Source: a virus
Lineage: Duplodnaviria; Caudoviricetes
Strand: one strand, 5' to 3'
DNA length: 54,835 nucleotides
Virus record (IMG/VR): IMGVR_UViG_3300042503_000400
Span: 1-54,835 of that record
Position numbers and translations under genes: made by a program. Position 1 is the first letter of the stretch. Each line of letters starts with the position of its first letter. Shown here piece by piece: positions 11,264-54,835 of the stretch. Under the pieces are notes generated by a model that was not told the DNA's origin, made no database searches, and saw nothing but the letters and a program-made list of their open reading frames with translations.

Positions 11264-14131
11264 ATGGACACAGCAGAGTTCTTGGGCAGGGTGCTGCCCG
11301 GCGAAGGGTATTATGTAGCGACAGTTATCAACCCGGACAGACGTGCGCAGAAGTCTTACGAGACCATAGACGCGCTGTCCAACGCGGTCATCCGGATCGA
11401 CATTGCTGGTGGTAACGTGTACTACGCAATGTCCTCGTTCACCGAGGCGGGCAACCGCAAGCAGGTGAACGTCAAGCAGACCAAGGCCCTGTTCATCGAC
11501 ATCGACTGCGGTGAGGACAAGCCCTTCGCCGACCAGCGCGAGGGCGCCAAGGCCCTCAAGACATTCCTCAAAGCCAGTGGCCTGCCACCACCCATGATCG
11601 TCAACTCGGGCCGTGGTCTCCACGTGTACTGGCCGTTGACCGAGGCGCTTGCGCCCGCTGACTGGCAGCCTCTGGCTGATGCACTCAAGGAGTGCGCGAA
11701 GCAGCATGGCTTCGAGATCGACCCGGCGGTGACCGCGGACAGCGCCCGGGTGCTGCGCCCAGTGGGTACCCACAACCCCAAGAACGGGGCGGAAGTGGTG
11801 CTCATCAAGGACGCACCTGACAACGACCCCGATGATCTGCGCCAGCTCCTAGCAAACTACATGTACCGTGCCCCCACCAAGCGGGGCTTCGCTGCGCAGG
11901 CCAAGCCTGTGTCCAGCATCACGGGAGCACTTGCGTCCGGGCAGGAGTACGAGCCTGCTATCGCGGGCAACATCATCGAAGGCTGCGCACAGGTACGCTG
12001 GGCTGCCAACAACCAAGGGGATGTGGAGGAGCCGTTCTGGTACGCGCTGCTCGGCATCGCTGCCTTCTGTGACGACCCGGAAGGGACGGCCATCGCGTGG
12101 TCAGACCAGCACCCGGACTACGACTATAGTCGTACTGTCCTCAAGGTGGAGCAGTGGAGAGGCAAGGCCACGGGACCAACCACCTGCGCCAAGTTCAAGG
12201 ACCTGCGCTCGACGGGCTGCAACAAGTGTCCCTTTGCTGGCAAGATCACCTCCCCCTGTCAGATCGGCCGCAAGCTGACTGAGGCCGAGGGCCCGGCCGA
12301 GGATGCACTTGACGAAGTGGCACATGAAGTGCCCATGCCTGCGGGCTTCAAGCGTGTGGCCAAGGGTGGCATCGCCCAGACCATCGACGACACTGACATC
12401 ATGGTCGTACCGTTCGACCTGTACCCCGTGAGCTACGGCAAGGACGAAGCGCTGGGGTACGAGGTGGTCCGCTTCCACTGGAAGCGCCCGCACAAGGGCT
12501 GGCAGGAACTCAAGTTCAGGCAAGCCTACCTCGCCGACGGGAACCGCGAGTTCCCCACAGCCATCGCTGACCAAGGTATCGTGCTGCCCTTCAAGGGCAT
12601 AACCGAGAGGTTCCAATACATGCTCCGTTCCTACATGGATGAACTCCGCAAGCTCAAGACGACCACCAACCTCTACACCACGCTCGGGTGGAAGGAGGAG
12701 AACTCCCTGTTCGTGCTCGGCGACAAGCAAGTCCGCAAGGACGAGCAAGGCCAGACCGTGGTCGAGGATGTCGTGCTGTCCTCTGCGGTGCAGCGCATCG
12801 GCACTGGGATGTATGGCACCAAGGGTGACCACGAGAAGTGGATCAAGATCACCAAGCTCATGGAAGCTGCCGGGCTCAAGGCTCACATCTTCGCCATGGG
12901 CGTGTCCATGTCCGCGCCGCTCTACCAGTTCACCGGGCTCAAGGGTGCGGTGCTGTCGCTCTACGGGCCGACAGGTAGCGGCAAGTCGCTGGCTCAGCTG
13001 GCGATGCAGTCTGTCTGGGGCAACCCTGTCGAGCTGCACTTCCAGTCTAAGTACACACAGAACGCGCTGTTCACCCGCCTGTCGTTCCTGAACAACCTGC
13101 CCATGACGATCGACGAGACCACCATGATGCCCGACAAAGAGGTCGGCGACTTCATCTACGGTGTGACGCAGGGCCGGGACAAGAGCCGCCTCAATGCCCG
13201 GGTGGAGGAGCGTGATCCGCGGACGTGGGCTACGCCTGTGACCCTGTCAACCAACCGTCCGATGGGCGGCAAGCTGCTGGCTGGTAACTTCGAGACTGAC
13301 GCGCAGATGGCCCGGATGTTGGAGCTTTCGCTGGAGAGTTCGGACATCTTCACCAAGAGCACGGATGTGGGGCGCAAGTTCTACAACACCATCACCCGCA
13401 ACTACGGCCATGTCGGCCTGCTGATCCTCCAGTGGCTGGTGGACAAGGGCGAGGTCGCCATCGTCAAGATGATCGCCGACCACATGGTCGCCTTCGAGAA
13501 GAAGTACAAGGTTCGGTTCAGCGGCGAGGAGCGGTACTGGGAAGTCATGATCGTGCTGGCTGACCTGATGAACAAGGTCGCGGTAGAGAACGGCTGGGTG
13601 GACTACGACTACACCAAGGCCACTGAGTTCGCACTAGAGCAGGCAGGCATGATCCGCCGCAGCATCAGCGCCGCCAAGCTGGATGAGTTCGACTTGCTGG
13701 GCGAATACCTCAACGAGATGCGTGCTGCCACTGTCCTCGTCTCCCACATCGACGGCCACGACCTGCCGATCTACGACCCCAGCAGGCTGCCACGCGCAGA
13801 AGTCCGGGTGCGGTTCGACCTGTACCGCAAGGCCACCAATGCCAAGAACGATCGGGGCATCCTGCTTGTGGACCGCACCCACTTCCGTCAGTGGATGGCC
13901 AGCCGGGGCGGGGACTGGAAGAAGTTTAGCGACGTGCTCGTGTCGGAAAGCGTCGACGCCACGCCGTCATCCAAGAAGGCCATCCTCGGCCGGGGCATCC
14001 CAGAACTGCGGCTCCCTCAGACCTACGTGGTCGGCATCAACCTTGCCCACGACCGGCTCCATACTCTCTTGGAGAATGAGGATAACCGGCCGGAGAGCAT
14101 GACGCTGGGTCAGCTGCGGGCAATGCCCTAG
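11264..14131 (+). CDS. AEP/RepB-type primase fused to a DUF927 (Cch-like) helicase
   Basis: FIDID, NSGRGLHVYW and RVLRPVGTHN primase motifs; CAKF…CNKCP cysteines; GPTGSGKS Walker A and TIDE Walker B. Confidence 0.85.
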   Translation: MDTAEFLGRVLPGEGYYVATVINPDRRAQKSYETIDALSNAVIRIDIAGGNVYYAMSSFTEAGNRKQVNVKQTKALFIDIDCGEDKPFADQREGAKALKTFLKASGLPPPMIVNSGRGLHVYWPLTEALAPADWQPLADALKECAKQHGFEIDPAVTADSARVLRPVGTHNPKNGAEVVLIKDAPDNDPDDLRQLLANYMYRAPTKRGFAAQAKPVSSITGALASGQEYEPAIAGNIIEGCAQVRWAANNQGDVEEPFWYALLGIAAFCDDPEGTAIAWSDQHPDYDYSRTVLKVEQWRGKATGPTTCAKFKDLRSTGCNKCPFAGKITSPCQIGRKLTEAEGPAEDALDEVAHEVPMPAGFKRVAKGGIAQTIDDTDIMVVPFDLYPVSYGKDEALGYEVVRFHWKRPHKGWQELKFRQAYLADGNREFPTAIADQGIVLPFKGITERFQYMLRSYMDELRKLKTTTNLYTTLGWKEENSLFVLGDKQVRKDEQGQTVVEDVVLSSAVQRIGTGMYGTKGDHEKWIKITKLMEAAGLKAHIFAMGVSMSAPLYQFTGLKGAVLSLYGPTGSGKSLAQLAMQSVWGNPVELHFQSKYTQNALFTRLSFLNNLPMTIDETTMMPDKEVGDFIYGVTQGRDKSRLNARVEERDPRTWATPVTLSTNRPMGGKLLAGNFETDAQMARMLELSLESSDIFTKSTDVGRKFYNTITRNYGHVGLLILQWLVDKGEVAIVKMIADHMVAFEKKYKVRFSGEERYWEVMIVLADLMNKVAVENGWVDYDYTKATEFALEQAGMIRRSISAAKLDEFDLLGEYLNEMRAATVLVSHIDGHDLPIYDPSRLPRAEVRVRFDLYRKATNAKNDRGILLVDRTHFRQWMASRGGDWKKFSDVLVSESVDATPSSKKAILGRGIPELRLPQTYVVGINLAHDRLHTLLENEDNRPESMTLGQLRAMP

Positions 14132-17100
14132 TTCAGCGTCATCAAGTCGATTAGGTTCTGCAGATCACGCTCGGCAGCATTAGGCGCGGACCGCAAGGTC
14201 CGCTCCATAGCTGGACGATCTGCTTCTTTTAACGCACGCTGAGAGTTCTTGACGAAGTTCTTGATCTCCAGACCAGTGCCCTTGGACCCTGCGTTCCACG
14301 TGTCAACTTCCGCTTCGATCTCACGCGCCCGCGCCCGGTCGCCCTCCATCATGGCCTTGACCCATCCAGTCCTGTACGCCGTAGTTTGCTCACGCTGGTA
14401 GTCCGTGATGCGTTTGGCCATACCGATCATCTCGTACTGACGGGAAGCCGCGACTGGGTAGAACCCAAGCACCCGCGTCAGAACGACACCGGCACTCATC
14501 TCCGGCGACACAGTGTAACCGCGCCGATCAGTAATTGCACCGTTCTGCATGTAGACGTAGGCTTCACCAGCCGCACGCATCATGGTTACGGGGGACTCGC
14601 GCAGTACATCTTCAACATCCACCGTGGCGGTGAATGGGGCCGTGAGCGCCTGTTTGGCAAACGTACCTGTAGCACCAATCATGCCTGCAGCAGGACCGAG
14701 GATTTCCATGACAGACCGGAACGGGTCAGCCCCAGCTATGAGAGCGCCCGAGCCCGGCAGCAAATCCCCGAGTGAGGTCTTGGCGGCCACGTCTCCGGGT
14801 ACGAACTGGTTGACCAAGCCCTGCATAAGCAGCGGCGACATCCCCGGGAAGATGCTGTCCAACATCTGCGCTGCTTCGTAACGGGCGCCCTGCCATCCGG
14901 AGATTTTTAGGGTCTGCGCGATGGTGTCGATGACATCTTCAAGGTCTTCCGCGAAGGGCAGACCCGCCAGACCTGTCAGCATCCACAAGGACCCCAACAT
15001 AAAAATCTGTCCCTTGCGGTCCATGTTGGCCAGCAGCTGGACAGACGTGGTGACGAACACCTTGTACATGTAGGCAAAAGACTGGATGCCCGAGCGCCAT
15101 GCAGGCGGACGGTTAAGGACGGCGTAGTCACCAAGCGTAAGGTCCAGTGCTTGCAGCGAGAACTGTGTCGCTTGGTCGTGCGCCTCGGCTTCTGTCTTAC
15201 CGGCTGCCAGCTTGCGGGCGTATTCAAGCCGATAGGCTGTAAGACCTGCAGTCTGGCGCGACGCGCGTTCAAACGAGTTGAACGTCCACATCCATACGTC
15301 GATGGCTTTCTGGGTAGCCCCGCGAGTTACCCGCCCGCGGGATGTACCGATGAGCGAGTTGGTCTGGGCGGGCGTTAGCTTGCCGTCAAGGATACCTTCC
15401 TTGAGGAACTGTGCTTCTCTGGCCGACAGACCAAACTGTTTCTGGAGTTTGTCACTGGCTTCCACCTCAGCAAAAAACTCAGCGGTATCGAACCGACTGT
15501 CAACAATACTGCGCCCACCTACCTGCACAGCAGCACGAACCATCTCCTTGTGGACGTTACCGAGACCGAAGCCCCCACCGAAAGCGGTTTTGCTGTTGTA
15601 TGAAGCGAGATAGGGGACGACGTTGGTCTCCAGCGCTACGAAGTTCATAGCCCCCGTTGCAACAGAGCCGCCCAGCTGGACCATAGAAGTAATTGCCCGC
15701 AAGGCGGACACCCAAGGCTTCGCCCCGAAGTCGGATTCGTCAACGCTTCTGTTGCCCTCGACAAACTCCATCGTCTTAGCGGCTTCGCCGTAGAACTGGT
15801 TGGCGCGGTTGGCGGGACCGCCACGGGTCTGCTGTACCATGTGGGCGTAGGCTTCATAGATACGGCGTGCGTCCACCTTGGCCTCACGGGAGACCGTGGG
15901 GTCTGCGTCCATAGCATCGGCGCGTTCTTTCAGAACCTCCGCCCAGTCGCGCCCGGTGCGCGGGTCCTTGAGCTCCGCGTTCCACAGTTCATTCGTGGAC
16001 CTCATGCTGCGGTCCATAAGCTCTGACCTACGCACACGCGTGGCGATCTTGGCCACAGTAGATGCGCGACCTTCAATGTGACGAGATGCAGCCATGATCG
16101 CGTCCGGGTCGGCGCCGGGGGTAAACGCCCGCATCAGGCGGTTACGAGCTGAGCTGTTCTGCCGAGTGAGCGCGACGACCAACTGTTCCAATTTTTGCGG
16201 CGACAGGTTGATGTCAAACTGCCGGATGCCGCGAAGGAACTCGTTAAGGTTGAGGTCCGGCGGCGCAGCTACGGTTTCCAGCGCGGTTTCAGGCACAGCC
16301 TGTAGCGTTACATTGCCGAGCACGTAGCCTTGTGCGGCGTCGCTGTAGTACATCACCTCGAACGGGGTGTTACCAAAGGCTTCGTTGGCCTTGCCCGACA
16401 TCTCCACAGCTTCCGACAACGAGTCAAACTGGGAGTAGACCAGTTGCTCCCGGTAGGAGTCCTTGACCTGCACCGGCTTGCCACCGACTAGGGCTACGAC
16501 ACGCATCTGGAACCGCCCCTCCCGAAGGATAGGAACGTACCCGGTGAACAGCGTGCGCTTGGTGTAAGCGTCCGCGTCTTGGTTGGCGATCTCGGCGGTG
16601 ATGATTTGCTTCACCTTGTCCTGCACCGCGAACTTGTCACCCTTGAGGGATAGGCGCTGCCGGAAGCCCTTGAGCTTGGCAATTAGATCGTCTGCGATCT
16701 GGGCTTCCATGGCAGCAGGTAGAGTTCTGTCTACTTCGCTGCCTGCCTCGCCCTTGATGAACACACGCGGCTCTACGAGCAGCTTGCGCAGTGCATCGAA
16801 ACGATCTGTCGACTCCCCAATGAGCGCCATGTTTGTCTGGCGCAGCACATCGTTGGCGTAGGTCTGATAGTCGGGGTCGAGCCTAGCGCCGCCGGACTCG
16901 CTCACGGTGACGTCTGTGGTGTACAAGTTACTGTACGTTTCGGCCACCGTTACGAGCGCTGCCCGCTCATCCGCAGTTAGCTCTCCATCCGTGACAGACT
17001 GCGCCAGTTTGCGGAACATAAGATCGCGGTTGTCGATCAGGCTCTGGTAGTGCGCCTCCAAAAGTTCAAGCTCAATACCGTCCATGGCTTTACGGACGGA

Positions 17101-20100
17101 TTCATAGCTACGCCACTCGGTGCTGTTCTCGGTCAGACCCTCGATCCCCGGGAAGCGCTCCTTCTTCTTGACGGTCTTGCCGCCCTCCTCGAACTCCACG
17201 TCGTAGTCAAACCCGTCGCGCATCTGTTCAAAGGTGCGAGTGCCGTTCTTCTGCAGCCGTTCAATCTCGGGGGTGTTGCGGGTAAGTTTGTCCCCGTCGA
17301 TCCGGAACAGTGGCACACGACCAAGATCACCGCCTGCTTTCGCGTAGTCAGAGGCGCCGCGGCGAAGACCCGCCATCAACATTTTACTGACGGTGCTGCG
17401 CTGCGCGTTAGAAATACCGCCAAGCTCTCCGTATACGGCGCGGCTTAGCGCCACCCGCATCATCTCGTTGTACTTGGTCTTGAGCGACATAGAGATGTCG
17501 CGGGCTTGCTTTAGGGAGTCATCAAACGCAGCGGACCCGGGGTTAATCCGTGCACGGTAGTTGGCGAGACTGAGCACCTGAGCCTTGAACCGGTCTAGGG
17601 AGTCAATCGTGTTGATGTTGCGAGCTTTGATGAAGTCCCACGCTTCGCCAAAAGACTGCGGAGCCGCGCCCAAATCGTCGCGCATCAGCCCCACTTCGAT
17701 GTTCACGTCACGCAGGGACTTGCCGGTTGAGAACCGCCCTGTATCACCCGAGGTTTCCACGTTGTGCAAGCGTTGCCCTACAGACCCCGCGTCGAAAGTA
17801 ACCCCCGTGCCGTAGCGCACATAGCGCCGGGACTGGTCGAGCAGGTAGCGGGTCATCTCATCGCCGTAACGCACGCCGAGCTTGTTTAGGATGCTCTTGA
17901 TAGAGTTCCACACCCGGGCCACGAGACTGGTGTCGAGGATGGCTGCGTAGTCCGACAAGTATTCTTCCACGGCCTCGGCTCTGGAGAGACCGGGACGCGC
18001 AGCCATAGCTGCGTCGGCTGCCCGTGACACGCGCTCATCAAGGTTGTACACCGCTTCCATCAGAGCGTCGAACTTCGCGCCGGGCATGATGGCCCGCAGG
18101 CCATAGTGGCCCATGCTCTCGTGGGCGAGGACGAAGTTAAGCTGCTGCTCGGTGGCAATGCGATCGGTGAAGACGACGACCTGACCGTCGCCGAAGGAGT
18201 AACCCATGGCCTGAGCGGTGTCGAAGTCGCCCTGCGGGCGGGCTGCCACGGCGCGGGCGTAAAGCTGTGGGAACTTGGCCTTGAGGTCAGCCTGATTGCG
18301 GACCACGGTGACCTTGGGTGCACGTGCCAGCTTGCTGAGGAAGTTCCTGACCAAGAGCTGCACGCGGCCGGGCGCGATGGCAGTGATGGGTTTGCCGTCC
18401 AGATCGACGACACCCTCGATGGTGTTCCAGTTGGCGAGGGCGAAGCCGCCACGAGCAGTCAGTTCGCCACGCTGAACATTCGGTTCGTTCTGGGCGTTGA
18501 CGTAGGCCAGCAGTGGGACGTTACCCCGACCCCGCAAGGCGGTACGACCTTCTTCGCCAAGGGCTTTAACCGCCACAGCGGTCTCACGAAATGCCTTTAT
18601 AAACCCAGACGGTAGATCGGTATTGCTCGCACGGCTCGCGGCAAATACGTCAAGCATCGTGTTCAACGTGTGGATTGCAGTAGACCCACCGACTTGAGAT
18701 TCTAGAGCTTCACCTGCGGCTTCCATCTCGGGTACAGACCCGACACTTTTATATTTATCCCAGAGTTCTTTCGCATAGGTCTGGTCAGCAGATGACAGCG
18801 TAGCAACGTACTCTTTGGCACGCCGTAGGCGAGCACGATAGGCAGCGGCCAGTTCCGGATCAGTGTCCTTGAGCCCCTTGGGGGTACGACCTTCGGCGAT
18901 TGCCATCACGCCAAACAACGCTTGGTCCCGCTCATCAGCGGCCAACTCGGGGTCTGCCAGTTCCTCGATGTACCCGTCCAGTTCGGCATTTAGCAACTCT
19001 GCGTCAGACACGGCCTGCGCACCGGCCTCGTCTTTGGCCCGTTCAACGGCTTGCTCAAAGGTAACCGCTTCGCGGGTCTGTACTGCGGTTGGCGCTGTAC
19101 GTTCTGCCTCCCGGCGGGCTGCTATAGCCTCTCTATTCTGACGCGGTGTCCTGTAGGTCCCGCCAGCAGTAAACTTGTCAAGTACAGCTTCCACATTGGC
19201 TGCAGCGGTGGCTTCTCTACCACCAGTTCTCGTGGTTCCTTTTTCGGCAAGCGCGGCAAACGCACTCGGCCGTGTTGGTGCCGTAGTTACTTCGGTAAAG
19301 ATCGAAGATGGCTCAGCCCGAGGTTTGGGTTGGGCAGGCACACCCGGGCCCTCGGGCACCGCCTCGGCCCGAGGTTTAGGTTGGGCGGCAGCGCCTCGCC
19401 GGACTGTCGCCGCCTTGGGTGCAGCAGCTTTGGGCGCACCCTGACGCTGGATGCCGGCCTTGCCGGTTGGTTTGGTCGGCGCCGGAGGCGGTGGCGGGGG
19501 CGCAACAGCGCGGTCGATCGCAGCGTTCACTGCGTCGGGGTCACTGGCGATTAGGGTACCAATGCCCTGCGCATCCGTGCCGAGGTCGGCGAGGACAGCC
19601 TGCTGCTGCTCCGGGGTGAGGGCACCCAAGCGCTCGATGACGTCACGCTGCTTCTTCGGCAGCGGCTTGGCTTTCAGCGGGGCCTTGGCCTTGGGCGCGG
19701 GTGTGGCCTTCGCCGCCGCCGCTCTCTGTGCCTTGGTGAGCGGTCGCGCTACGGGAGCGGCAACAGGAGTAGGTACAGGCGGCACTCGCGTGTCCGGCGT
19801 AACTCCCGCACCCACGTCCTCGATCCGACTGCGCAGCCCCGCGAGCACCCTAGTGGCGTCAGTGTATTCTGCCCCCGCCCGTTGCTGCTGGACCCTGTCA
19901 CCGGTCGCACGCGCTTGGATGAGGGCTCGGTTCGCAGCCTCGACCCGTGCCTCAGCCTCCATCAGGTTGTTGTAGTACAGCCGATCGGCAGGAGTGGCGG
20001 CTCCTGCTACCTGCTCCGCTACCGACATGTCGGCAGCCCTACCACGCGCAGCAAGTTCCTCCCCGCGGGCGGCACGCTGTAGCGATCGGCCGGCTGCAGC

Positions 20101-21894
20101 CTGCGCGACTTCGCCCTCTAGTGCTGCATCAAGCGCAGCACCCTGCCTGTTGGCTGCGGCTGAGCGACTGCCGCGAAGTAGGTTGCGGGCCATCGCGCCC
20201 CGGGCGACGTCTACGGCCTGCGTAGCGTCAAGCGCAGCATCGCGTGCTTCCACCGCGGCTCTCCGCTCGTTCGCGCGCAGCAGCGTGATAGGGGCAGGCG
20301 GACCCTGCATCGGGCCAAGCGGAGCAGGCCCTTGCATCTCGCCGAGCGGCGCGGGCCCCTGCATCGGGCCAAGCGGAGCAGGCCCTTGCATCTCACCAAG
20401 CGGCATCGGCCCCTGCATCGGGCCAAGCGGAGCAGGCCCTTGCATCTCACCAAGCGGCATCGGCCCCTGCATCGGGCCAAGCGGAGCAGGCCCTTGCATG
20501 TAGTCTTCTAGCCGCGGACCCTGCATCGGTCCAAGCGGCGCTGTGTCGGCCGGTGCCTCTTTCTCAGCCGCCTGCTCAGTGGCAGTGGTGTTCAGATCGA
20601 GCGGCTTGTCAGTAGGAACTGGTGGCTTGGGAGCGCCACGCGCAAACGCACCCTGTGGGAGCGCGACACCAACACCGCCACCGAGGAGGGCACCAGCACC
20701 TGCTGCCACGAGCATCTGCTCGCCGTACCGTTCGGCGATATAGGGGGCCAGTACTTTCCAGTCCTGCGGGGACAGGTTGTCGTGTACCATGGGGTCGAAC
20801 AGCACAGACTCAAGGAAGGTCTGCGCCACTTCCGTGCCAGCTTCCGCAAAGCCAGTGGCAACACCAGAGGTCAGTCGACGGCGAACCGCACTCTTGGCTG
20901 CGTTCTCAGCTGCGGCTTTAACGACCGGGCTCAGCAGTCGGCTTTCGATACCGAACGTGTCGAGGTAGGAGTTAGCCAGTGCGCCGCCGAGGACGCCCAC
21001 CTTAACCAGTGGATCGCTCAGGTCCTGCTGGTTGCGGACAGCCGCGTCGTACATACCGGCGAGGTGGATGGGGAAGTTAGCCCCAGCTGCGCCAGCAGTA
21101 GCGGCGCGTGTTACACCTTGAGTAGCCATACCGGCACGAGAAGCCAGCGACGCGGCACCCATACCACCCGCTAACGACCCCACCAGCAGCGGGATGGACT
21201 CGATGGACCCGTCGACGATCTGCTCCCACAGAGAGCTGTTCTCAGCAATGAGCGCGGAGCGCAGCTGTTCGTTCTCAGAGTCACCAAGAAGCGACTCGAC
21301 CGGAGCACGCAGCGCAGCACCCGTTTCCTCGAAGCCCGCCAGTGTCGCGGCCGTACCCGGCAGCGTGCCAAGACCGTAGGCTAGGTTCTTGAGACCACGA
21401 CCCAGCAGTTCCCCGGTGCCACGGCGCTCGGAAAACGACGCGAGGTACTGCCCGAACGCGTTACCGGGTAGAGCAACCCACCCAGCGCCAGTAGGGCGAG
21501 TGGTATTCCCCGGCGTCTGAGCAGCTTCAAGCGCAGAGCGGACGTCATCAGCTTTGAACACACGGTCGCCAGCGAACATTTCGTTCGTGGCTTGGTTGAA
21601 GTAGGCCGTGGCGGGAGGACGCACTGGCGTACCAGCGGGGGTACCAAGAGTCGGTCCCTCGAACAAACTCGCTGCGCGGGCGTCCCCGGCCGCACGGGCT
21701 TCGTTAAGCGTAGTCAGTGCCGAAGGCGCTTGCCGCGGAACCACGCGGCCGGAAACGAGTGTGTCTGCGTCTGTCGGTTGAAGACTACCGGCGCCCATGC
21801 GGGTTGCCGGATCATCCCCGAAACGAGCGGACGGGACACGAAGCCCCGTCCCCATAGCTTGGCTGACCGGCCTGTCAAAAAACATTTCAGCCAT
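14128..21894 (-). CDS. Giant internal virion/ejection (polyvalent-type) protein, 2588 aa
   Basis: Last and largest gene of the structural operon; AHESMGHYGLR zincin-like motif and YVPILREG (PLxRFG-like) motif. Confidence 0.75.
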   Translation of the reverse strand: MAEMFFDRPVSQAMGTGLRVPSARFGDDPATRMGAGSLQPTDADTLVSGRVVPRQAPSALTTLNEARAAGDARAASLFEGPTLGTPAGTPVRPPATAYFNQATNEMFAGDRVFKADDVRSALEAAQTPGNTTRPTGAGWVALPGNAFGQYLASFSERRGTGELLGRGLKNLAYGLGTLPGTAATLAGFEETGAALRAPVESLLGDSENEQLRSALIAENSSLWEQIVDGSIESIPLLVGSLAGGMGAASLASRAGMATQGVTRAATAGAAGANFPIHLAGMYDAAVRNQQDLSDPLVKVGVLGGALANSYLDTFGIESRLLSPVVKAAAENAAKSAVRRRLTSGVATGFAEAGTEVAQTFLESVLFDPMVHDNLSPQDWKVLAPYIAERYGEQMLVAAGAGALLGGGVGVALPQGAFARGAPKPPVPTDKPLDLNTTATEQAAEKEAPADTAPLGPMQGPRLEDYMQGPAPLGPMQGPMPLGEMQGPAPLGPMQGPMPLGEMQGPAPLGPMQGPAPLGEMQGPAPLGPMQGPPAPITLLRANERRAAVEARDAALDATQAVDVARGAMARNLLRGSRSAAANRQGAALDAALEGEVAQAAAGRSLQRAARGEELAARGRAADMSVAEQVAGAATPADRLYYNNLMEAEARVEAANRALIQARATGDRVQQQRAGAEYTDATRVLAGLRSRIEDVGAGVTPDTRVPPVPTPVAAPVARPLTKAQRAAAAKATPAPKAKAPLKAKPLPKKQRDVIERLGALTPEQQQAVLADLGTDAQGIGTLIASDPDAVNAAIDRAVAPPPPPPAPTKPTGKAGIQRQGAPKAAAPKAATVRRGAAAQPKPRAEAVPEGPGVPAQPKPRAEPSSIFTEVTTAPTRPSAFAALAEKGTTRTGGREATAAANVEAVLDKFTAGGTYRTPRQNREAIAARREAERTAPTAVQTREAVTFEQAVERAKDEAGAQAVSDAELLNAELDGYIEELADPELAADERDQALFGVMAIAEGRTPKGLKDTDPELAAAYRARLRRAKEYVATLSSADQTYAKELWDKYKSVGSVPEMEAAGEALESQVGGSTAIHTLNTMLDVFAASRASNTDLPSGFIKAFRETAVAVKALGEEGRTALRGRGNVPLLAYVNAQNEPNVQRGELTARGGFALANWNTIEGVVDLDGKPITAIAPGRVQLLVRNFLSKLARAPKVTVVRNQADLKAKFPQLYARAVAARPQGDFDTAQAMGYSFGDGQVVVFTDRIATEQQLNFVLAHESMGHYGLRAIMPGAKFDALMEAVYNLDERVSRAADAAMAARPGLSRAEAVEEYLSDYAAILDTSLVARVWNSIKSILNKLGVRYGDEMTRYLLDQSRRYVRYGTGVTFDAGSVGQRLHNVETSGDTGRFSTGKSLRDVNIEVGLMRDDLGAAPQSFGEAWDFIKARNINTIDSLDRFKAQVLSLANYRARINPGSAAFDDSLKQARDISMSLKTKYNEMMRVALSRAVYGELGGISNAQRSTVSKMLMAGLRRGASDYAKAGGDLGRVPLFRIDGDKLTRNTPEIERLQKNGTRTFEQMRDGFDYDVEFEEGGKTVKKKERFPGIEGLTENSTEWRSYESVRKAMDGIELELLEAHYQSLIDNRDLMFRKLAQSVTDGELTADERAALVTVAETYSNLYTTDVTVSESGGARLDPDYQTYANDVLRQTNMALIGESTDRFDALRKLLVEPRVFIKGEAGSEVDRTLPAAMEAQIADDLIAKLKGFRQRLSLKGDKFAVQDKVKQIITAEIANQDADAYTKRTLFTGYVPILREGRFQMRVVALVGGKPVQVKDSYREQLVYSQFDSLSEAVEMSGKANEAFGNTPFEVMYYSDAAQGYVLGNVTLQAVPETALETVAAPPDLNLNEFLRGIRQFDINLSPQKLEQLVVALTRQNSSARNRLMRAFTPGADPDAIMAASRHIEGRASTVAKIATRVRRSELMDRSMRSTNELWNAELKDPRTGRDWAEVLKERADAMDADPTVSREAKVDARRIYEAYAHMVQQTRGGPANRANQFYGEAAKTMEFVEGNRSVDESDFGAKPWVSALRAITSMVQLGGSVATGAMNFVALETNVVPYLASYNSKTAFGGGFGLGNVHKEMVRAAVQVGGRSIVDSRFDTAEFFAEVEASDKLQKQFGLSAREAQFLKEGILDGKLTPAQTNSLIGTSRGRVTRGATQKAIDVWMWTFNSFERASRQTAGLTAYRLEYARKLAAGKTEAEAHDQATQFSLQALDLTLGDYAVLNRPPAWRSGIQSFAYMYKVFVTTSVQLLANMDRKGQIFMLGSLWMLTGLAGLPFAEDLEDVIDTIAQTLKISGWQGARYEAAQMLDSIFPGMSPLLMQGLVNQFVPGDVAAKTSLGDLLPGSGALIAGADPFRSVMEILGPAAGMIGATGTFAKQALTAPFTATVDVEDVLRESPVTMMRAAGEAYVYMQNGAITDRRGYTVSPEMSAGVVLTRVLGFYPVAASRQYEMIGMAKRITDYQREQTTAYRTGWVKAMMEGDRARAREIEAEVDTWNAGSKGTGLEIKNFVKNSQRALKEADRPAMERTLRSAPNAAERDLQNLIDLMTLN
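20299..20541 (-). repeat. Nine 27-bp tandem units encoding xPLG(P/E)MQGP
   Basis: Alternating 27-mers giving a 54-bp period (for example 20361 vs 20415); one divergent unit (RLEDYMQGP). Confidence 0.95.
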
Positions 21895-51632: not shown

Positions 51633-51637
51633 CCCTG

Positions 51638-51669
51638 ACCCGCCCGGCTCACCACCGGGCGGGTTTTTT
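51638..51669 (+). terminator. Rho-independent terminator
   Basis: ACCCGCCCGG-7 nt-CCGGGCGGGT followed by TTTTT. Confidence 0.85.
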
Positions 51670-51678
51670 GTTGCCCGC

Positions 51679-52234
51679 TTTACACCTTTACACCGCCCGC
51701 ATAGGAGGCAGTTGCGTGCTGCGCGTCGTTAAGTTTTGCTCGTTTCACTCGCCATACGTCGGGGGCCTGTAGCTCTGACACGTAGACATGCTGCCCTTTA
51801 CACACTGTCAGGCCAAACAGTCGGGGGGCTGTAACGTATTGATATTAAACAACTATCTATTTTCGCTTTACACTACCTTTACACAAAATGTGTAAAATTT
51901 AGATGGTTTACATGTTTACACCACGATGGATAGTCCAATGAAACCAAGGGGTTAGCGGATGTAAACCAGTGTGTAGTAGTAGTAAAGTATCTCTACTATC
52001 TATAATATATAGGTTTTTTTTGAAGATACGTGACGGAAATCGTCAATCAACTCGGTTGAGTGTAAACCTTTACAATACAACCGTCCCAGTTGCACAATTT
52101 TAGCGCCGGATATTCTGAAAAATCGTAGATAGTTTAGATACCTACCCACAACCCATTGATTTTCCATACGTTTTACTATCTATCGTGTAAAGATACTTCG
52201 CCTACCCAAACCTCAATTCTTAGATACTTTACAC
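51679..52234. repeat. AT-rich non-coding array of TTTACAC and TAGATA motifs with IHF sites (candidate origin)
   Basis: 10 exact TTTACAC/GTGTAAA copies, 6 TAGATA/TATCTA copies and 2 perfect IHF consensus matches. Confidence 0.7.
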
Positions 52235-52370
52235 TCTATTTCCCCCCTACCCCCCAGATTTGACGCCATCTGGCCCGATCGGCTAGGAAGATGGGGCTGG
52301 CCGAGGTCCACCCAAACCACCTCCGGTCCGGCAAACTTAACAATCTTAACACACACTGGAGACTACCATC

Positions 52371-52643
52371 ATGGCTAACTGGGCCAAACTTGCCGACCTC
52401 TCCGCTGACCTTTACAAGAAAACCCTTACAGTCCGGCCCTTGTGCCGCCCTTACATCAGTCAGGCTGATGCCATCTATGACTACACCGTCGGCCATGAAC
52501 TGGTCGTCGTGGACCAATCGTCCCCCCTTAACAACTGCCGGATCACTGTCTGTGACCGTCATGAGTTGAAGCGGCACTACGACCTGACCCATCTCAACAT
52601 CCAGTTCAACCCCGGCATGGCTCCGGTTGAAGTCACCCTCTGA
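52371..52643 (+). CDS. Hypothetical protein
   Basis: GGAG RBS; 90 aa. Confidence 0.65.
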   Translation: MANWAKLADLSADLYKKTLTVRPLCRPYISQADAIYDYTVGHELVVVDQSSPLNNCRITVCDRHELKRHYDLTHLNIQFNPGMAPVEVTL

Positions 52644-52655
52644 GGAGTAGGTATT

Positions 52656-52826
52656 ATGGATGCTAACACGGTTCGAATGACTGCCGCGGTGCTTAGCTAC
52701 CTCGGTCTTGACGAGTTCTACAAGCAGGTCGATGCCCATATCGAGGCATACCCCGGTATCTCCTACAAGGATGCCCTTACAGAAGTGGTCCAAATCCATG
52801 TGGATCACATGGGCCACCGGCTCTAA
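52656..52826 (+). CDS. 56-aa hypothetical protein (not in ORF track)
   Basis: MDANTVRMTAAVLSYLGLDEFYKQVDAHIEAYPG…HRL*; GAGGAG RBS. Confidence 0.6.
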   Translation: MDANTVRMTAAVLSYLGLDEFYKQVDAHIEAYPGISYKDALTEVVQIHVDHMGHRL

Positions 52827-52831
52827 CAACC

Positions 52832-52861
52832 AGCCCGTCCGGCTCTGTCGGATGGGCTTTC
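52832..52861 (+). terminator. Hairpin / weak terminator
   Basis: AGCCCGTCCGG-CTCTG-TCGGATGGGCT (two G-U pairs) with a short T run. Confidence 0.45.
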
Positions 52862-52894
52862 CCGTTCCTCAACCCTCTAAGGAAGGTCACTAAC

Positions 52895-53668
52895 ATGTTC
52901 GGCTCTAACATCGCCCTGCCCCGTGGCGGCATCACTTCCTATCAGCAAGCTCTGGTTAAGCATGATAGCATCGCTCCCATCAGGGGGCGGTCCACTGACG
53001 TCAGACCTCTTGGTAACCGGAGGAATGACAACCTCACCATCCGCAAACTTGACAACGGCTCCATTGCCGTCCGGCTCTACCAGACTGACATCGTCACTTA
53101 CCATGACGATGGCACCATCGACCTTGAGCCTTACTCGTCCAAGCTGACAGACGAGGCTGTCAGACAGGTGTTTCGCGGTGCTGTCACGGCCAGTTACACC
53201 AACCCTGTTGGGCCTGTCCTGTGGACAAACCACAACGGCACTCGTCGGGGCTATCTGGTCGATGGCTGTGCCTCACTGGACAAAGACCTCAACGTCATCG
53301 CTGGGACCAAGCCCTTCACCCGTTACAGTGTCAGCCGCAAGAAGGCCAACGCTGCCTGCGCCAAGGGCTTCAACCAGTTCAAGCTGTGGGTCGAGACCCA
53401 AGTCAGACTGGGCATTGACCCTAGACAAGGTGAGCGTTGGGGCACAGTCCACCTGTCTAACATGGCCTTGGCCTGTCTCGATGAGCCGGATCGCTACGCT
53501 GACATTGCCCGTGGCATGTCCACTTATGTCACTGTTGACTCTCACCTCGACGCCATCCGGCGCCAAGTGCTGAAATACCACGACTGCGTCGAGGAGACCG
53601 AGGTGCCTTACATCACAGGGTGGGACCAGCTCACTTCCATCCAGTCCAGCAAGAAGCGGTGGGGGTGA
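52895..53668 (+). CDS. Hypothetical early protein
   Basis: 257 aa, AGGAAGG RBS. Confidence 0.75.
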   Translation: MFGSNIALPRGGITSYQQALVKHDSIAPIRGRSTDVRPLGNRRNDNLTIRKLDNGSIAVRLYQTDIVTYHDDGTIDLEPYSSKLTDEAVRQVFRGAVTASYTNPVGPVLWTNHNGTRRGYLVDGCASLDKDLNVIAGTKPFTRYSVSRKKANAACAKGFNQFKLWVETQVRLGIDPRQGERWGTVHLSNMALACLDEPDRYADIARGMSTYVTVDSHLDAIRRQVLKYHDCVEETEVPYITGWDQLTSIQSSKKRWG

Positions 53669-53699
53669 AATTACCTATGAGTCGAAACTGGAGAACAAC

Positions 53700-53918
53700 A
53701 TGAACAGATACGTCACCTTTACAACCTACACCGACGAGGACCCACAGGTCCTGACAGAGTCCGAGTTCTTCGACACACCAAAAAACGACACCGACTGGTG
53801 TGAGTGGGTCTGGCAGTATGCCCCCGACAGAGCGACGGCTCTTTCCCAGCACCAGACCAAGATGGACGAATATCAGGCCGACGTCGAAGCTGGTCGGACA
53901 GAGAAGCGAACATACTAA
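53700..53918 (+). CDS. Hypothetical acidic protein
   Basis: GGAG RBS; 72 aa. Confidence 0.65.
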   Translation: MNRYVTFTTYTDEDPQVLTESEFFDTPKNDTDWCEWVWQYAPDRATALSQHQTKMDEYQADVEAGRTEKRTY

Positions 53919-53981
53919 TGTCGAAACACCCTTCGGGGTGTCTGTGGCAGGTGGCTCCTGCTGCACTGATGAGACAAGCCA
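53919..53981 (+). ncRNA. Type II hammerhead ribozyme with loop I-3' tail pseudoknot
   Basis: TGTC-GAAA-CACCC(TTCG)GGGTG-TC^-TGTGGCAGG(TGGCT)CCTGCTGCA-CTGATGA-GACA-AGCCA: complete core, three stems and a GUC cleavage triplet. Confidence 0.92.
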
Positions 53982-54004
53982 AACAACCTCTTATGGAGAA
54001 CACA

Positions 54005-54835
54005 ATGCGTCCATCCCTTCTGTCTGACACACTTAAAGACCTCATCTCGATCAACCGCACCGTGGCTATCGAGGGGGCACCGGGTGGTGGCAAGACCACC
54101 CTCGTTCAGTCTGTGACTGAGGCTCTCGGTCTGCACTATGTCGAGCGTCACCTGCCGACCATGCTGGTCGAGGACTTCGGCATCCCTGTCATTGGGGGCG
54201 AGACCCTACGTTACATGATCCCCGACTGGTTCCCTGCCAAGGGCTCTCGTTATGACGATGGCCGTGGTGGGGTGCTCTGCTTTGATGATCGGAACCAAGC
54301 TCCGGCCGACATCCAGAAAGTGCTGGCTAACATCTGCCAAGCACGCAACCTCCACGGCACACCCCTTGCCAAGGGCTGGACTGTCGTCTCCACTGGTAAC
54401 CGTCAGTCTGACCGGGCTGGGGCCAACCGGGTGCTGTCTCACCTTCGCAATCGTGAGACTGTCCTAGAGTTCGACACCAACCTCGATGACTGGTCGTCGT
54501 GGGCACTGACACATGGGGTCAAGTCTGAGGTGGTGGCCTTCATCCGCTTCCGTCCCGGTCTGCTCCATGACTTCGATGCCAACAAGGACCAGAACCCTAC
54601 CCCACGCAGCTGGACCGAGGGTGTCAGTGATGTGCTTGGTGTCGTCCCTCCTGAGGCTGAGTTCGACTGCTTCAAGGGCGCCGTTGGTGAGGGGGCTGCG
54701 GCTGAGTTCGTGGGGTTCCTCAAGATTTACCGCAAGCTGCCTAACCCTGATGCTATCTTGCTCAACCCTGACAGTGCCGATGTGCCGTCCGATCCGGCCA
54801 CTCTCTACGCTCTGTCTGGTGCTATCTCCAGCCGC
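54005..54835 (+). CDS. MoxR-like AAA+ ATPase (runs off the window end; not in ORF track)
   Basis: GAPGGGKT Walker A, LCFDD Walker B, TGNR…D sensor I, LRNR arginine finger and PTPRSW sensor II; GGAG RBS. Confidence 0.88.
   Translation, partial: MRPSLLSDTLKDLISINRTVAIEGAPGGGKTTLVQSVTEALGLHYVERHLPTMLVEDFGIPVIGGETLRYMIPDWFPAKGSRYDDGRGGVLCFDDRNQAPADIQKVLANICQARNLHGTPLAKGWTVVSTGNRQSDRAGANRVLSHLRNRETVLEFDTNLDDWSSWALTHGVKSEVVAFIRFRPGLLHDFDANKDQNPTPRSWTEGVSDVLGVVPPEAEFDCFKGAVGEGAAAEFVGFLKIYRKLPNPDAILLNPDSADVPSDPATLYALSGAISSR

What the first reader, a model, noticed from the sequence alone, without database searches (positions are those of the whole stretch)
53919..53981. Intact self-cleaving hammerhead ribozyme inside the early operon, directly before the AAA ATPase
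Seen: it begins at the base after the TAA of gene 53700-53918. It has stem II TGTC/GACA, GAAA, stem III CACCC-UUCG-GGGTG, a GUC cleavage site after C53942, a 9-bp stem I, the CUGAUGA core, and loop I UGGCU complementary to the 3' AGCCA (pseudoknot). Established: type II hammerheads with this pseudoknot occur in phage and bacterial intergenic regions, and their function is largely unknown. Inference: protein-free processing of the polycistronic early mRNA, giving the ATPase message a structured 5'-OH end that alters stability or translation.
Basis: partly seen in the sequence, partly recalled or inferred. Interest (0 to 1): 0.8.

Follow-up and report, generated by a model that had tools for sequence, protein, structure and literature searches.

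The report
Phage hammerhead ribozyme before ATPase gene
A genuine type II hammerhead self-cleaving RNA fills the gap between a small gene and an ATPase gene in an uncultured phage; it is a well-preserved example of a kind known since 2011.

Summary
Window 53919-53984 (+) is the only Rfam match above gathering score in the window: Hammerhead_II, 39.2 bits against a cut-off of 37. All core nucleotides, the GUC cleavage site (bond 53942/53943), stems I-III and the 5-bp loop I/3'-tail pseudoknot are present. In related phages found through the ATPase gene, 23 distinct hammerheads keep the core invariant. Their stems covary: 96.5% of cells are paired, 18 of 24 pairs change on both sides, and 0 of 500 shuffles reach this.

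It sits between same-strand genes in the replication-gene block, 0 nt after a stop codon and 23 nt before the probable ATPase start at 54005. The best reading is the standard one: protein-free cutting of a polycistronic mRNA. This leaves a hairpin-capped 3' end on the upstream message and a hairpin-capped 5'-OH end on the ATPase message. Cleavage and transcription were not tested.

Additional points:
- A 12-nt remnant of a second hammerhead lies before the 72-aa gene.
- Some relatives have small genes flanked by two hammerheads.
- One sister lineage has a promoter-like site in the hammerhead's place.
- In this subtype the upstream stop codon abuts the ribozyme in 58 of 63 cases.

Verdict: a new member of a known kind, of modest interest.

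The parts
52895..53668 (+). 257-aa ORF of unknown function. Its family is the commonest gene directly upstream of the hammerhead in relatives.
   Evidence: ORF list. No Pfam or PHROG match. The upstream ORFs of 15 of 36 hammerhead hits cluster with homologues of this gene, e.g. L003, L005 and L014. Window-to-L003 flank identity is 92%.
53680..53691 (+). 12-nt remnant of a second hammerhead: 5' strand of stem II, GAAA core and start of stem III. It is fused directly to the ribosome-binding region of the 72-aa ORF.
   Evidence: In the alignment, window and L003 are collinear up to this point. L003 then continues into an intact hammerhead, while the window continues into GGAG (53690-53693) and ATG 53700. 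No covariance-model hit here at E up to 1.
53700..53918 (+). 72-aa ORF, an insertion relative to L003-type relatives. Its TAA stop (53916-53918) abuts the ribozyme.
   Evidence: No Pfam or PHROG match. Apart from the window's own protein, one relative at 82% identity in the protein collection. None found in viral contigs.
53919..53984 (+). Type II hammerhead ribozyme, full Rfam model match.
   Evidence: RF02276, 39.2 bits, cut-off 37. 72.8 bits with the clade model R1.
53919..53922 (+). Stem II 5' strand (UGUC). It pairs with 53973-53976 (GACA).
   Evidence: Helix 1: 3 of 4 pairs change on both sides in relatives.
53923..53925 (+). Core G12 A13 A14.
   Evidence: Invariant in all 23 distinct relatives.
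53926..53941 (+). Stem III hairpin (6 bp including A15.1-U16.1, UUCG loop). It becomes the 3'-terminal hairpin of the upstream cleavage product.
   Evidence: second fold. Helix 2: 5 of 7 pairs change on both sides, 98.8% of cells paired.
53942..53943 (+). Cleavage site: C17 (53942) and U1.1 (53943). The predicted products are ...C53942 with a 2',3'-cyclic phosphate and 5'-OH-U53943...
   Evidence: Position follows from the family consensus alignment. The chemistry is established knowledge of hammerheads. Cleavage was not tested here.
53943..53965 (+). Stem I hairpin (9 bp, loop UGGCU 53952-53956). It becomes the 5'-terminal hairpin of the ATPase message.
   Evidence: first fold. Helix 3: 9 of 9 pairs change on both sides, 96.9% of cells paired.
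53966..53972 (+). Core C3 U4 G5 A6 U7 G8 A9 (CUGAUGA).
   Evidence: Invariant except N7 in 23 distinct relatives.
53977..53981 (+). 3' strand of the pseudoknot (AGCCA), which pairs with loop I 53952-53956.
   Evidence: Helix 4: 100% of cells paired, and pair 54-82 changes C-G to U-A in 3 distinct sequences. The pseudoknot was shown to be needed for fast cleavage in this class (PMC3088659, passages).
53995..53998 (+). GGAG, the probable Shine-Dalgarno of the ATPase gene, 6 nt before ATG 54005.
   Evidence: In L006-type relatives the upstream ATG is followed by GAG TAA, so only the second ATG can start the ATPase.
54005..54835 (+). MoxR-like AAA+ ATPase gene (probable start 54005; alternative in-frame ATG 53993). 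It is cut off by the end of the record after 281 of about 334 codons.
   Evidence: Pfam AAA_5, 27.6 bits. phrog_1297 ATPase, E 1.6e-55. The full-length homologue in L003 is 334 aa.
51637..51665 (+). Terminator-like hairpin (11 bp, then a T run) that closes the preceding + strand unit.
51666..52370 (+). AT-rich non-coding region with repeated TTTACAC-type motifs. It is the candidate start region of the transcript that carries the hammerhead.
   Evidence: GC 0.36-0.47 against 0.52-0.64 in the flanks. Repeat families D1-D3, D6 and D10. Two weak promoter-like sites at 51907-51934 and 52069-52098, not more than shuffles give.

Best explanation
Window 53919-53984 encodes a catalytically intact type II hammerhead ribozyme of the pseudoknot-stabilised subtype, inside a + strand multi-gene transcript of an uncultured tailed phage.

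Proposed mechanism:
1. As RNA polymerase passes the site, the RNA folds. Stems I and III are hairpins. Stem II is closed by the 5' and 3' ends. Loop I pairs with the AGCCA tail.
2. The RNA cuts itself between C53942 and U53943 without any protein.
3. The upstream message (small genes 52371-53918) ends 24 nt after its last stop codon in the UUCG-capped stem III hairpin, with a 2',3'-cyclic phosphate.
4. The ATPase/replication-gene message begins with a 5'-OH on the first base of the 9-bp stem I hairpin. It has a constant 62-nt leader carrying its own GGAG and AUG 54005.
5. The two halves of the transcript can therefore decay and be translated independently, whatever gene lies upstream.

Shown here: the motif, its conservation and covariation, and its position.
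Inferred: transcription, cleavage in vivo, and the consequences for stability or translation.

The confidence given (0.75) is for self-cleavage of the phage transcript in vivo. That the sequence is a true hammerhead I put at about 0.97.
For: (1) Family match above Rfam's curated cut-off, the only one in the window. It rang in 0 of 14 control genomes.

(2) All defining nucleotides and the three core-adjacent pairs are present.

(3) Relatives. A clade model found 36 hammerheads in 33 of 81 sources (window plus 80 ATPase loci), 23 of them distinct. On their alignment 96.5% of cells pair, 18 of 24 pairs change on both sides, and the covariation score is 0.660 against 0.148 in shuffles (0 of 500 reach it). 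Sliding the partner by 1-3 columns gives 35-42% paired. The core is invariant while the stems are rewritten, which indicates selection for catalysis.

(4) Same-strand ORFs lie on both sides. No promoter-like or terminator-like site was found on the + strand between about 52100 and the ribozyme.

(5) The same ribozyme/ATPase junction follows different upstream genes. There are 12 upstream ORF families among the 36 hits.

(6) In one sister sublineage (8 loci, L020-L026 and L031) a TTGACA-17-nATGAT site (10 of 12, with TG) stands at the same place instead of a hammerhead. This fits the idea that a new 5' end is wanted there.

(7) Predicted products have terminal hairpins (folds 1 and 2).

(8) Print: type II hammerheads with this pseudoknot cleave at more than 1 per min at 0.5 mM Mg2+. 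Hammerheads flank single genes in prophages. A halovirus hammerhead 13 nt before an early helicase gene coincides with a mapped 5' end (PMC3088659, passages read).
Against: - No cleavage assay was done and there is no RNA evidence.
- In a longer context (53900-54040) the MFE model keeps stems I and III but pairs the stem II strands elsewhere (fold 3). MFE models cannot include the pseudoknot.
- The fold energy of the motif alone is unremarkable (z -1.94).
- The ribozyme is dispensable at such junctions. 46 of 80 related loci show none within the fetched flanks, and 9 have one only farther upstream. Only 22 of 79 whole records match RF02276 at E <= 0.01. This genome itself has lost a second copy (remnant 53680-53691).
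- The promoter substitution is one lineage, so one evolutionary event.
- The host is unknown (best cellular relative of the ATPase is 43% identical). The fate of 5'-OH and cyclic-phosphate ends in its RNA decay system therefore cannot be predicted.
Confidence: 0.75

Rival explanations
1. Cleavage is not constitutive. It is gated by translation of the upstream gene. The stop codon abuts the 5' strand of stem II, so a terminating ribosome covers stem II, G12-A14 and half of stem III. The ribozyme can fold only when the upstream ORF is not being translated, or after ribosome release. This would make the ratio of joined to separated message depend on translation.
For: The stop codon ends 0 nt before the ribozyme in the window. 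It ends within -3..+5 nt in 20 of 23 distinct hammerheads of the ATPase clade. It ends within -2..+5 nt in 58 of 63 distinct hammerheads of the same subtype from 80 other viral loci, against 12 of 162 at decoy anchors. In 16 of those 63 the stop codon overlaps the first two ribozyme bases.
Against: Tight packing is what a compact phage genome gives anyway, and the downstream side is equally filled (mostly 13-29 nt to the start). Three clade members have 11-15 nt gaps. No experiment was done. The ribosome footprint argument rests on general knowledge, not on a call.
Confidence: 0.15
2. The hammerhead plus the ribosome-binding leader behind it (about 90 nt) persists mainly as a portable joint for gene exchange. 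Recombination between copies inserts, deletes or swaps small genes. RNA cleavage then serves only to insulate each new cassette from its neighbours.
For: L002 and L004 have two hammerheads flanking a 143-aa gene that starts with the same leader as the ATPase. L037 has two flanking the 257-aa-family gene. In the window a 12-nt remnant of an upstream copy precedes the inserted 72-aa gene, which carries the same GGAG-leader. The window's ribozyme shares its stem III with L002's first copy and its stem I with L002's second copy (96% over 50 nt). Ten of the 80 subtype loci listed hold two copies. Downstream genes are diverse: AAA_5 in 9 of 58, SprT-like 2, ArdC-N 1, most without a Pfam family. Print: hammerheads flank individual genes of varying identity in prophages (PMC3088659).
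Against: A recombination joint would not need an invariant catalytic core and covarying stems. Those show selection on the RNA. The mosaic pattern rests on few sequences and could reflect shared ancestry. This rival complements the main explanation rather than excluding it.
Confidence: 0.12
3. The element is a decayed or non-cleaving hammerhead look-alike that acts only as a structured intergenic spacer or protein-binding site.
For: No activity data. The Rfam score is only 2.2 bits above the cut-off. Some natural hammerhead-like sequences were inactive in vitro (PMC3088659, Discussion passage).
Against: Every core position matches the active consensus, and the three core-adjacent pairs are Watson-Crick. 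The core is invariant across 23 distinct relatives whose stems covary. The pseudoknot needed for fast cleavage is present and covaries.
Confidence: 0.04
4. The stretch is protein-coding: an N-terminal extension of the ATPase, since the frame is open from GTG 53804 through the ribozyme.
For: ORF 53804-54835 is open in the ATPase frame.
Against: In L006-type relatives a TAA lies in that frame just before the ATPase start. Lengths differ by non-multiples of three among relatives, 68 to 77 nt. Substitutions are paired across stems, not patterned by codon. The ATPase homology starts at residue 1-5 of the short form in all 80 loci.
Confidence: 0.01

Closest known systems
Type II hammerhead ribozymes with loop I/3'-tail pseudoknot (Rfam RF02276; Perreault et al. 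2011, PMC3088659)
   Same: Same permuted topology: stems I and III capped, stem II open. Same invariant core, same GUC site, short stem II, and a pseudoknot of 4 or more bp between loop I and the nucleotides just after stem II. Same setting in phage or prophage intergenic regions.
   Different: Nothing structural differs. This copy comes from an uncultured phage clade defined here by its ATPase gene. I could not check whether it or a near-identical metagenomic sequence is already in that paper's Dataset S1 or in Rfam's full alignment, because supplements are closed.
Multiple hammerheads flanking single genes in prophages, e.g. the triple arrangement in Agrobacterium tumefaciens (PMC3088659, passages)
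   Same: Relatives L002/L004 and L037 have two hammerheads around one gene. The window has one intact copy plus a remnant around a 72-aa gene.
   Different: Here the second copy has been deleted. The window therefore shows loss as well as spread of such copies. The flanked genes are unrelated to ardA or the genes named in the paper.
HHphage variant hammerhead of haloviruses HF1/HF2, 13 nt before the start codon of an early helicase gene (PMC3088659, Discussion passage)
   Same: A ribozyme immediately before the first gene of a replication-type block in a lytic virus. A mapped 5' end near the cleavage site there supports in vivo processing.
   Different: Archaeal virus, a variant core and a different hammerhead architecture. 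No transcript mapping exists for the window's phage.
Engineered ribozyme insulators such as RiboJ, and RNase III/RNase E processing sites between phage early genes (recalled from memory, not from any call)
   Same: Works alike in principle. A cut upstream of a ribosome-binding site gives the downstream gene a fixed, hairpin-capped leader that is independent of what lies upstream.
   Different: RiboJ is synthetic and derived from a satellite-RNA hammerhead. RNase sites need host enzymes. Membership is not claimed; this is only an analogy of mechanism.

Membership tests
Hammerhead_II (Rfam RF02276) | Covariance-model score at or above the curated gathering score (37 bits) | tested here: met
   39.2 bits, full-length model match 1-66, E 1.5e-4 for the window. 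E 3.6e-8 per genome.
Hammerhead_II (Rfam RF02276) | Invariant catalytic core C3 U4 G5 A6 N7 G8 A9 and G12 A13 A14 | tested here: met
   CUGAUGA at 53966-53972 and GAA at 53923-53925. Invariant in 23 distinct relatives except N7. The numbering convention is recalled.
Hammerhead_II (Rfam RF02276) | A15.1-U16.1 pair and a non-G nucleotide 17 at the cleavage site | tested here: met
   A53926-U53941 and C53942. The pair at columns 8-40 is A-U in 23 of 23.
Hammerhead_II (Rfam RF02276) | Three helices around the core; stems I and III closed by loops, stem II open (type II permutation) | tested here: met
   The MFE fold gives exactly this. Helices 1-3 are supported by changes on both sides in 17 of 20 pairs.
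Hammerhead_II (Rfam RF02276) | Watson-Crick pairs directly next to the core (10.1-11.1, 1.1-2.1, 15.1-16.1), the acceptance rule of Perreault et al. | tested here: met
   G53973-C53922, U53943-A53965 and A53926-U53941. The rule is quoted in the PMC3088659 Methods passage.
Hammerhead_II (Rfam RF02276) | Pseudoknot of 4 or more bp between loop I and the nucleotides just 3' of stem II (typical of the type, not obligatory) | tested here: met
   UGGCU 53952-53956 with AGCCA 53977-53981. Helix 4 has 100% of cells paired, and one pair changes C-G to U-A in 3 distinct sequences.
Hammerhead_II (Rfam RF02276) | Mg2+-dependent site-specific self-cleavage giving 2',3'-cyclic phosphate and 5'-OH | not testable with these tools
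No RNA run holds the stretch.
Hammerhead_II (Rfam RF02276) | Transcribed on the strand that carries the motif | not testable with these tools
   Inferred only from flanking + strand genes. No RNA holder is listed.

The most novel reading that the evidence does not exclude
The hammerhead together with the GGAG-AUG leader behind it is a portable, roughly 90-nt intercistronic module in phages. Its 5' edge is locked onto the upstream stop codon, so the terminating ribosome gates folding and cleavage. Its cut gives every downstream gene the same hairpin-capped leader, which makes it functionally interchangeable with a promoter, as in the L020 sublineage. Copies of the module serve as the joints at which small genes are inserted, swapped and deleted; the window preserves one such event as a 12-nt remnant. 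If true, this would give the long-orphan bacterial and phage hammerheads a defined role as translation-coupled insulators of gene cassettes.
Probability: 0.2. Interest if true: 0.6.

Novelty: new member of a known kind. Interest (0 to 1): 0.3.

Why it matters
The biological role of genomically encoded hammerheads in bacteria and phages is still described as unresolved (review PMC6765202, passages read).

This copy adds no new structure. However, the phage clade around it is a ready-made comparative set, because the same ATPase junction occurs in several forms:
- with a pseudoknot-type hammerhead;
- with a second hammerhead subtype;
- with two hammerheads around an inserted gene;
- with a dead remnant;
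- with a promoter-like site instead;
- with nothing.

This allows direct tests of whether the cut sets message stability, translation or cassette insulation.

The regular abutment of stop codon and ribozyme (58 of 63) is a simple, checkable rule. I did not find it in the main text of the founding paper: 'stop codon' and 'ribosome' occur 0 times. One literature search on it found nothing either.

Tried and rejected
- **blastn against deposited phages.** blastn of 52800-54835 found no match. By protein the ATPase is under 60% identical in all 613 matching records, and 28.6-32.4% in the 25 listed, which are mostly N4-like phages. No named relative exists.
- **Expression.** No RNA holder is listed. 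I laid four runs that hold small shares of the stretch. They are contigs of relatives at 85-99% likeness and probably DNA. They show no starts or ends (table 6 empty), so they say nothing on cleavage.
- **Second ribozyme in the window.** None was found with the clade model at E up to 1 or with all Rfam families at E up to 1.
- **Relatives of the 72-aa ORF.** None in viral contigs. One at 82% identity in the protein collection.
- **Host.** Genome contigs gave only 32-43% identical ATPases in MAGs of several phyla. The host stays unknown.
- **Circular continuation of the ATPase gene at window base 1.** Rejected. Frame 1 of the start is low-complexity and unrelated. L003's gene end has no match at the window start.
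- **N-terminal extension of the ATPase through the ribozyme.** Rejected (see rivals).
- **Circular RNA or splicing by two hammerheads.** Not applicable to the window, which has one intact copy. The 2011 authors reported that they could not detect such products (PMC3088659).
- **Supplements of PMC3088659.** The hammerhead alignments and figures S3-S6 could not be opened. They may already contain near-identical metagenomic sequences.
- **Slips that were corrected.** Wrong frame (redone). Too many loci in one call (split into). Sequence too long for batch folding (redone). A regex that required the wrong stem II register (fixed).

Full report
**What is there**

The window is a whole IMG/VR virus record of 54,835 bases.
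- The TAA stop of a 72-aa ORF lies at 53916-53918.
- Stem II is UGUC 53919-53922 paired with GACA 53973-53976.
- The core purines GAA lie at 53923-53925.
- Stem III is 53926-53931 paired with 53936-53941, around a UUCG loop.
- The GUC triplet ends at C53942.
- Stem I is 9 bp, 53943-53951 with 53957-53965, with loop UGGCU.
- The core CUGAUGA lies at 53966-53972.
- AGCCA at 53977-53981 is complementary to loop I.

Rfam's covariance models give one match above gathering score in the whole window. It is Hammerhead_II (RF02276) at 53919-53984, + strand, 39.2 bits against a cut-off of 37, matching the full model. A permissive scan (E up to 1) adds only two chance-level hits far away. The family rang in 0 of 14 control genomes. 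An unconstrained MFE fold gives exactly the three-way junction. Its energy is not unusual (z -1.94, 10 of 200 shuffles fold as well), so thermodynamics alone would not carry the claim.

**Is it more than chance? Relatives**

Using the downstream ATPase protein I fetched 80 related loci from viral contigs; 195 relatives were found and the best 80 kept.
- RF02276 run over the whole records behind these loci matched at E <= 0.01 in 18 of 40 and 4 of 39 records.
- It matched above the cut-off in 11 and 3 of them. Three records have two matches above the cut-off or just below it.
- A model built from seven 70-nt copies then found 36 hammerheads in 33 of 81 sources (window plus 80 loci). Of these 23 are distinct, and only one is in the window.

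On their alignment the core is invariant and the stems are rewritten:
- 96.5% of 516 cells pair.
- 18 of 24 pairs change on both sides.
- The covariation score is 0.660 against 0.148 in shuffles (0 of 500 reach it).
- Sliding the 3' partners by 1-3 columns drops pairing to 35-42%.
- All 9 pairs of stem I and 5 of 7 pairs of stem III show double changes.
- In the pseudoknot, one pair switches from C-G to U-A in three distinct sequences.

That alignment was fitted to the model's nested structure, which favours it somewhat. The pseudoknot was not part of the model. The plain MAFFT alignment and per-sequence MFE folds show the same picture.

**Setting**

- The ORF downstream is a MoxR-like AAA+ ATPase (Pfam AAA_5; phrog_1297, E 1.6e-55).
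- The + strand block at the other end of the record holds DNA polymerase, helicase and primase genes.
- The - strand block holds terminase, portal/adaptor, internal virion and tail fibre genes.
- The record ends inside the ATPase gene, after 281 of about 334 codons. The window's first bases do not continue it.
- The ATPase start is probably ATG 54005 with GGAG at 53995-53998. In L006-type relatives the earlier ATG is followed by GAG TAA.
- Upstream, a terminator-like hairpin (51637-51665) is followed by a 700-nt AT-rich non-coding region with repeated TTTACAC-type motifs.
- Four + strand ORFs then lead to the ribozyme. No terminator-like or promoter-like site lies on that strand between them.
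- So the ribozyme very likely lies inside a multi-gene transcript. 'Early' is a reasonable guess from gene content, not a result.
- No deposited phage is close and no close prophage was found. The host is unknown.

**How it most likely works**

From the family's established chemistry, the RNA cuts itself after C53942. The predicted products are:
- An upstream message that ends 24 nt past its stop codon in the UUCG-capped stem III hairpin, with a cyclic phosphate.
- A downstream message whose very first base (5'-OH U53943) is paired in the 9-bp stem I hairpin, followed by a fixed 62-nt leader to AUG 54005 (folds 1 and 2).

From general knowledge, not from a call: terminal hairpins and a 5'-OH hinder the usual exonucleolytic and 5'-end-dependent decay routes. 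However, in some bacteria a 5'-OH instead attracts RNase J. The direction of the effect cannot be predicted without the host.

This reading is the one already proposed in print. Perreault et al. describe type II hammerheads with exactly this pseudoknot and show that the pseudoknot is needed for fast cleavage. They note hammerheads flanking single genes in prophages 'implying' processing of long phage transcripts. They also point to a halovirus hammerhead 13 nt before an early helicase gene whose transcript 5' end maps at the cleavage site (PMC3088659, passages read). A 2019 review still calls the purpose unresolved (PMC6765202, passages read).

**What the comparison adds**

(a) The junction is modular.
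- In 23 of 80 loci a hammerhead lies within about 125 nt of the ATPase start. In 9 it lies farther upstream, in 46 none was found, and 2 had too little upstream sequence.
- The gene in front of the ribozyme differs: 12 ORF families among the 36 hits.

(b) The window carries a scar.
- Up to 53691 it is collinear with L003, where an intact hammerhead follows.
- In the window only the first 12 nt of that hammerhead remain (53680-53691). They are fused to GGAG and the ATG of the 72-aa ORF, and the intact ribozyme comes after that ORF.
- L002 and L004 show the presumably older state: two hammerheads around an inserted 143-aa gene that starts with the same leader as the ATPase. L037 has two around the 257-aa-family gene.
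- The window's ribozyme shares its stem III with L002's first copy and its stem I with L002's second copy (96% over 50 nt).
- This suggests that ribozyme-plus-leader units are the joints at which small genes come and go.

(c) In one sister sublineage (8 loci) a TTGACA-17-nATGAT site with an upstream TG (10 of 12) stands where the ribozyme stands elsewhere. This is one evolutionary event and only a hint. It fits a need for a fresh 5' end before the ATPase.

(d) The same hammerhead subtype is common.
- In 69 distinct copies from the 80 loci listed, 63 had an upstream ORF of 40 or more codons.
- That ORF's stop codon ends -2 to +5 nt from the first ribozyme base in 58 of the 63.
- At decoy anchors the figure is 12 of 162.
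- The gap to the next start codon is mostly 13-29 nt.
- Some of these loci are the ATPase-clade contigs again, so the two sets overlap.
- Downstream genes are diverse: AAA_5 in 9 of 58, SprT-like in 2, ArdC-N in 1, and most without a Pfam family.
- The tight stop-codon abutment may simply reflect genome compaction. It may also mean that a terminating ribosome blocks folding. I rate the latter at about 0.15.

**Evidence against, and what is missing**

- No RNA run holds the stretch, and the contigs I laid say nothing on ends.
- In a 141-nt context the MFE model pairs the stem II strands elsewhere (fold 3).
- The ribozyme is clearly dispensable. Most relatives lack it, and this genome has lost one copy.
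- Activity, strand of transcription, timing and effect all remain to be tested.
- The supplements of the 2011 paper, which list its hammerhead alignments, could not be opened. I therefore cannot say whether this sequence or a near-identical one is already catalogued.

**Comparison and verdict**

- On every sequence-level criterion tested, this is a member of Hammerhead_II. The only untestable criteria are cleavage and transcription.
- It works like the prophage hammerheads described in 2011 and, by analogy only, like engineered ribozyme insulators (recalled).
- It is a new member of a known kind.
- A specialist would not be surprised by the motif. The value lies in the comparative set around it and in the stop-codon rule.
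- Interest 0.3. Confidence about 0.97 that it is a true hammerhead and about 0.75 that it cleaves the phage transcript in vivo.

Noticed in passing
window 51666-52370 (with hairpin 51637-51665): A roughly 700-nt AT-rich non-coding region (GC 0.36-0.47 against 0.52-0.64 around it) lies behind a strong terminator-like hairpin. It holds at least nine TTTACAC-type motifs on both strands and several short inverted repeats. It is 80-89% conserved in relatives. It may be an early promoter cluster, regulator binding sites or an origin.
   Followed up: partly
L029:2927-2995, L033:2914-2982 (= L034), L038:2921-2994: A second hammerhead subtype sits at the same place before the ATPase. It lacks the loop I/tail pseudoknot. 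With its 3' tail included, the MFE fold replaces stem II by a 6-8 bp hairpin that pairs the catalytic CUGAnG with the tail (z -3.4 to -4.6, 0 of 200 shuffles fold as well). The N7 change from U to C in L029 is matched by A to G in the tail. This could be an 'off' conformer or a post-cleavage lock.
   Followed up: partly
window 54835 / window 1: The record ends inside the ATPase gene, at 281 of about 334 codons, and base 1 does not continue it. The record is therefore cut, not a closed circle, despite the 100% completeness estimate.
   Followed up: yes
window 19483-19578 (+): ARAGORN calls a 96-nt tRNA-Ala(CGC) inside, and antisense to, the 2588-aa ORF 14128-21894. It is probably spurious.
   Followed up: no
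window 14128-21894 (-): A 2588-aa ORF matches only the C-terminal part of PHROG families of giant proteins of unknown function (phrog_11358, profile length 3431). The ATPase's nearest deposited relatives are N4-like phages at about 30% identity. This hints at a distant N4-like podovirus with a giant virion protein.
   Followed up: no
L002:2966-3000 and L014:2951-2990: Some relatives carry an extra GC-rich hairpin between the hammerhead's pseudoknot tail and the ATPase ribosome-binding site. The window lacks it.
   Followed up: no
L020:2937-2965 (also L021-L026, L031): A sister sublineage has a near-consensus sigma-70-like site (TTGACA, 17 nt, nATGAT with upstream TG) about 35 nt before the ATPase start, where the window's clade has the hammerhead.
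   Followed up: partly
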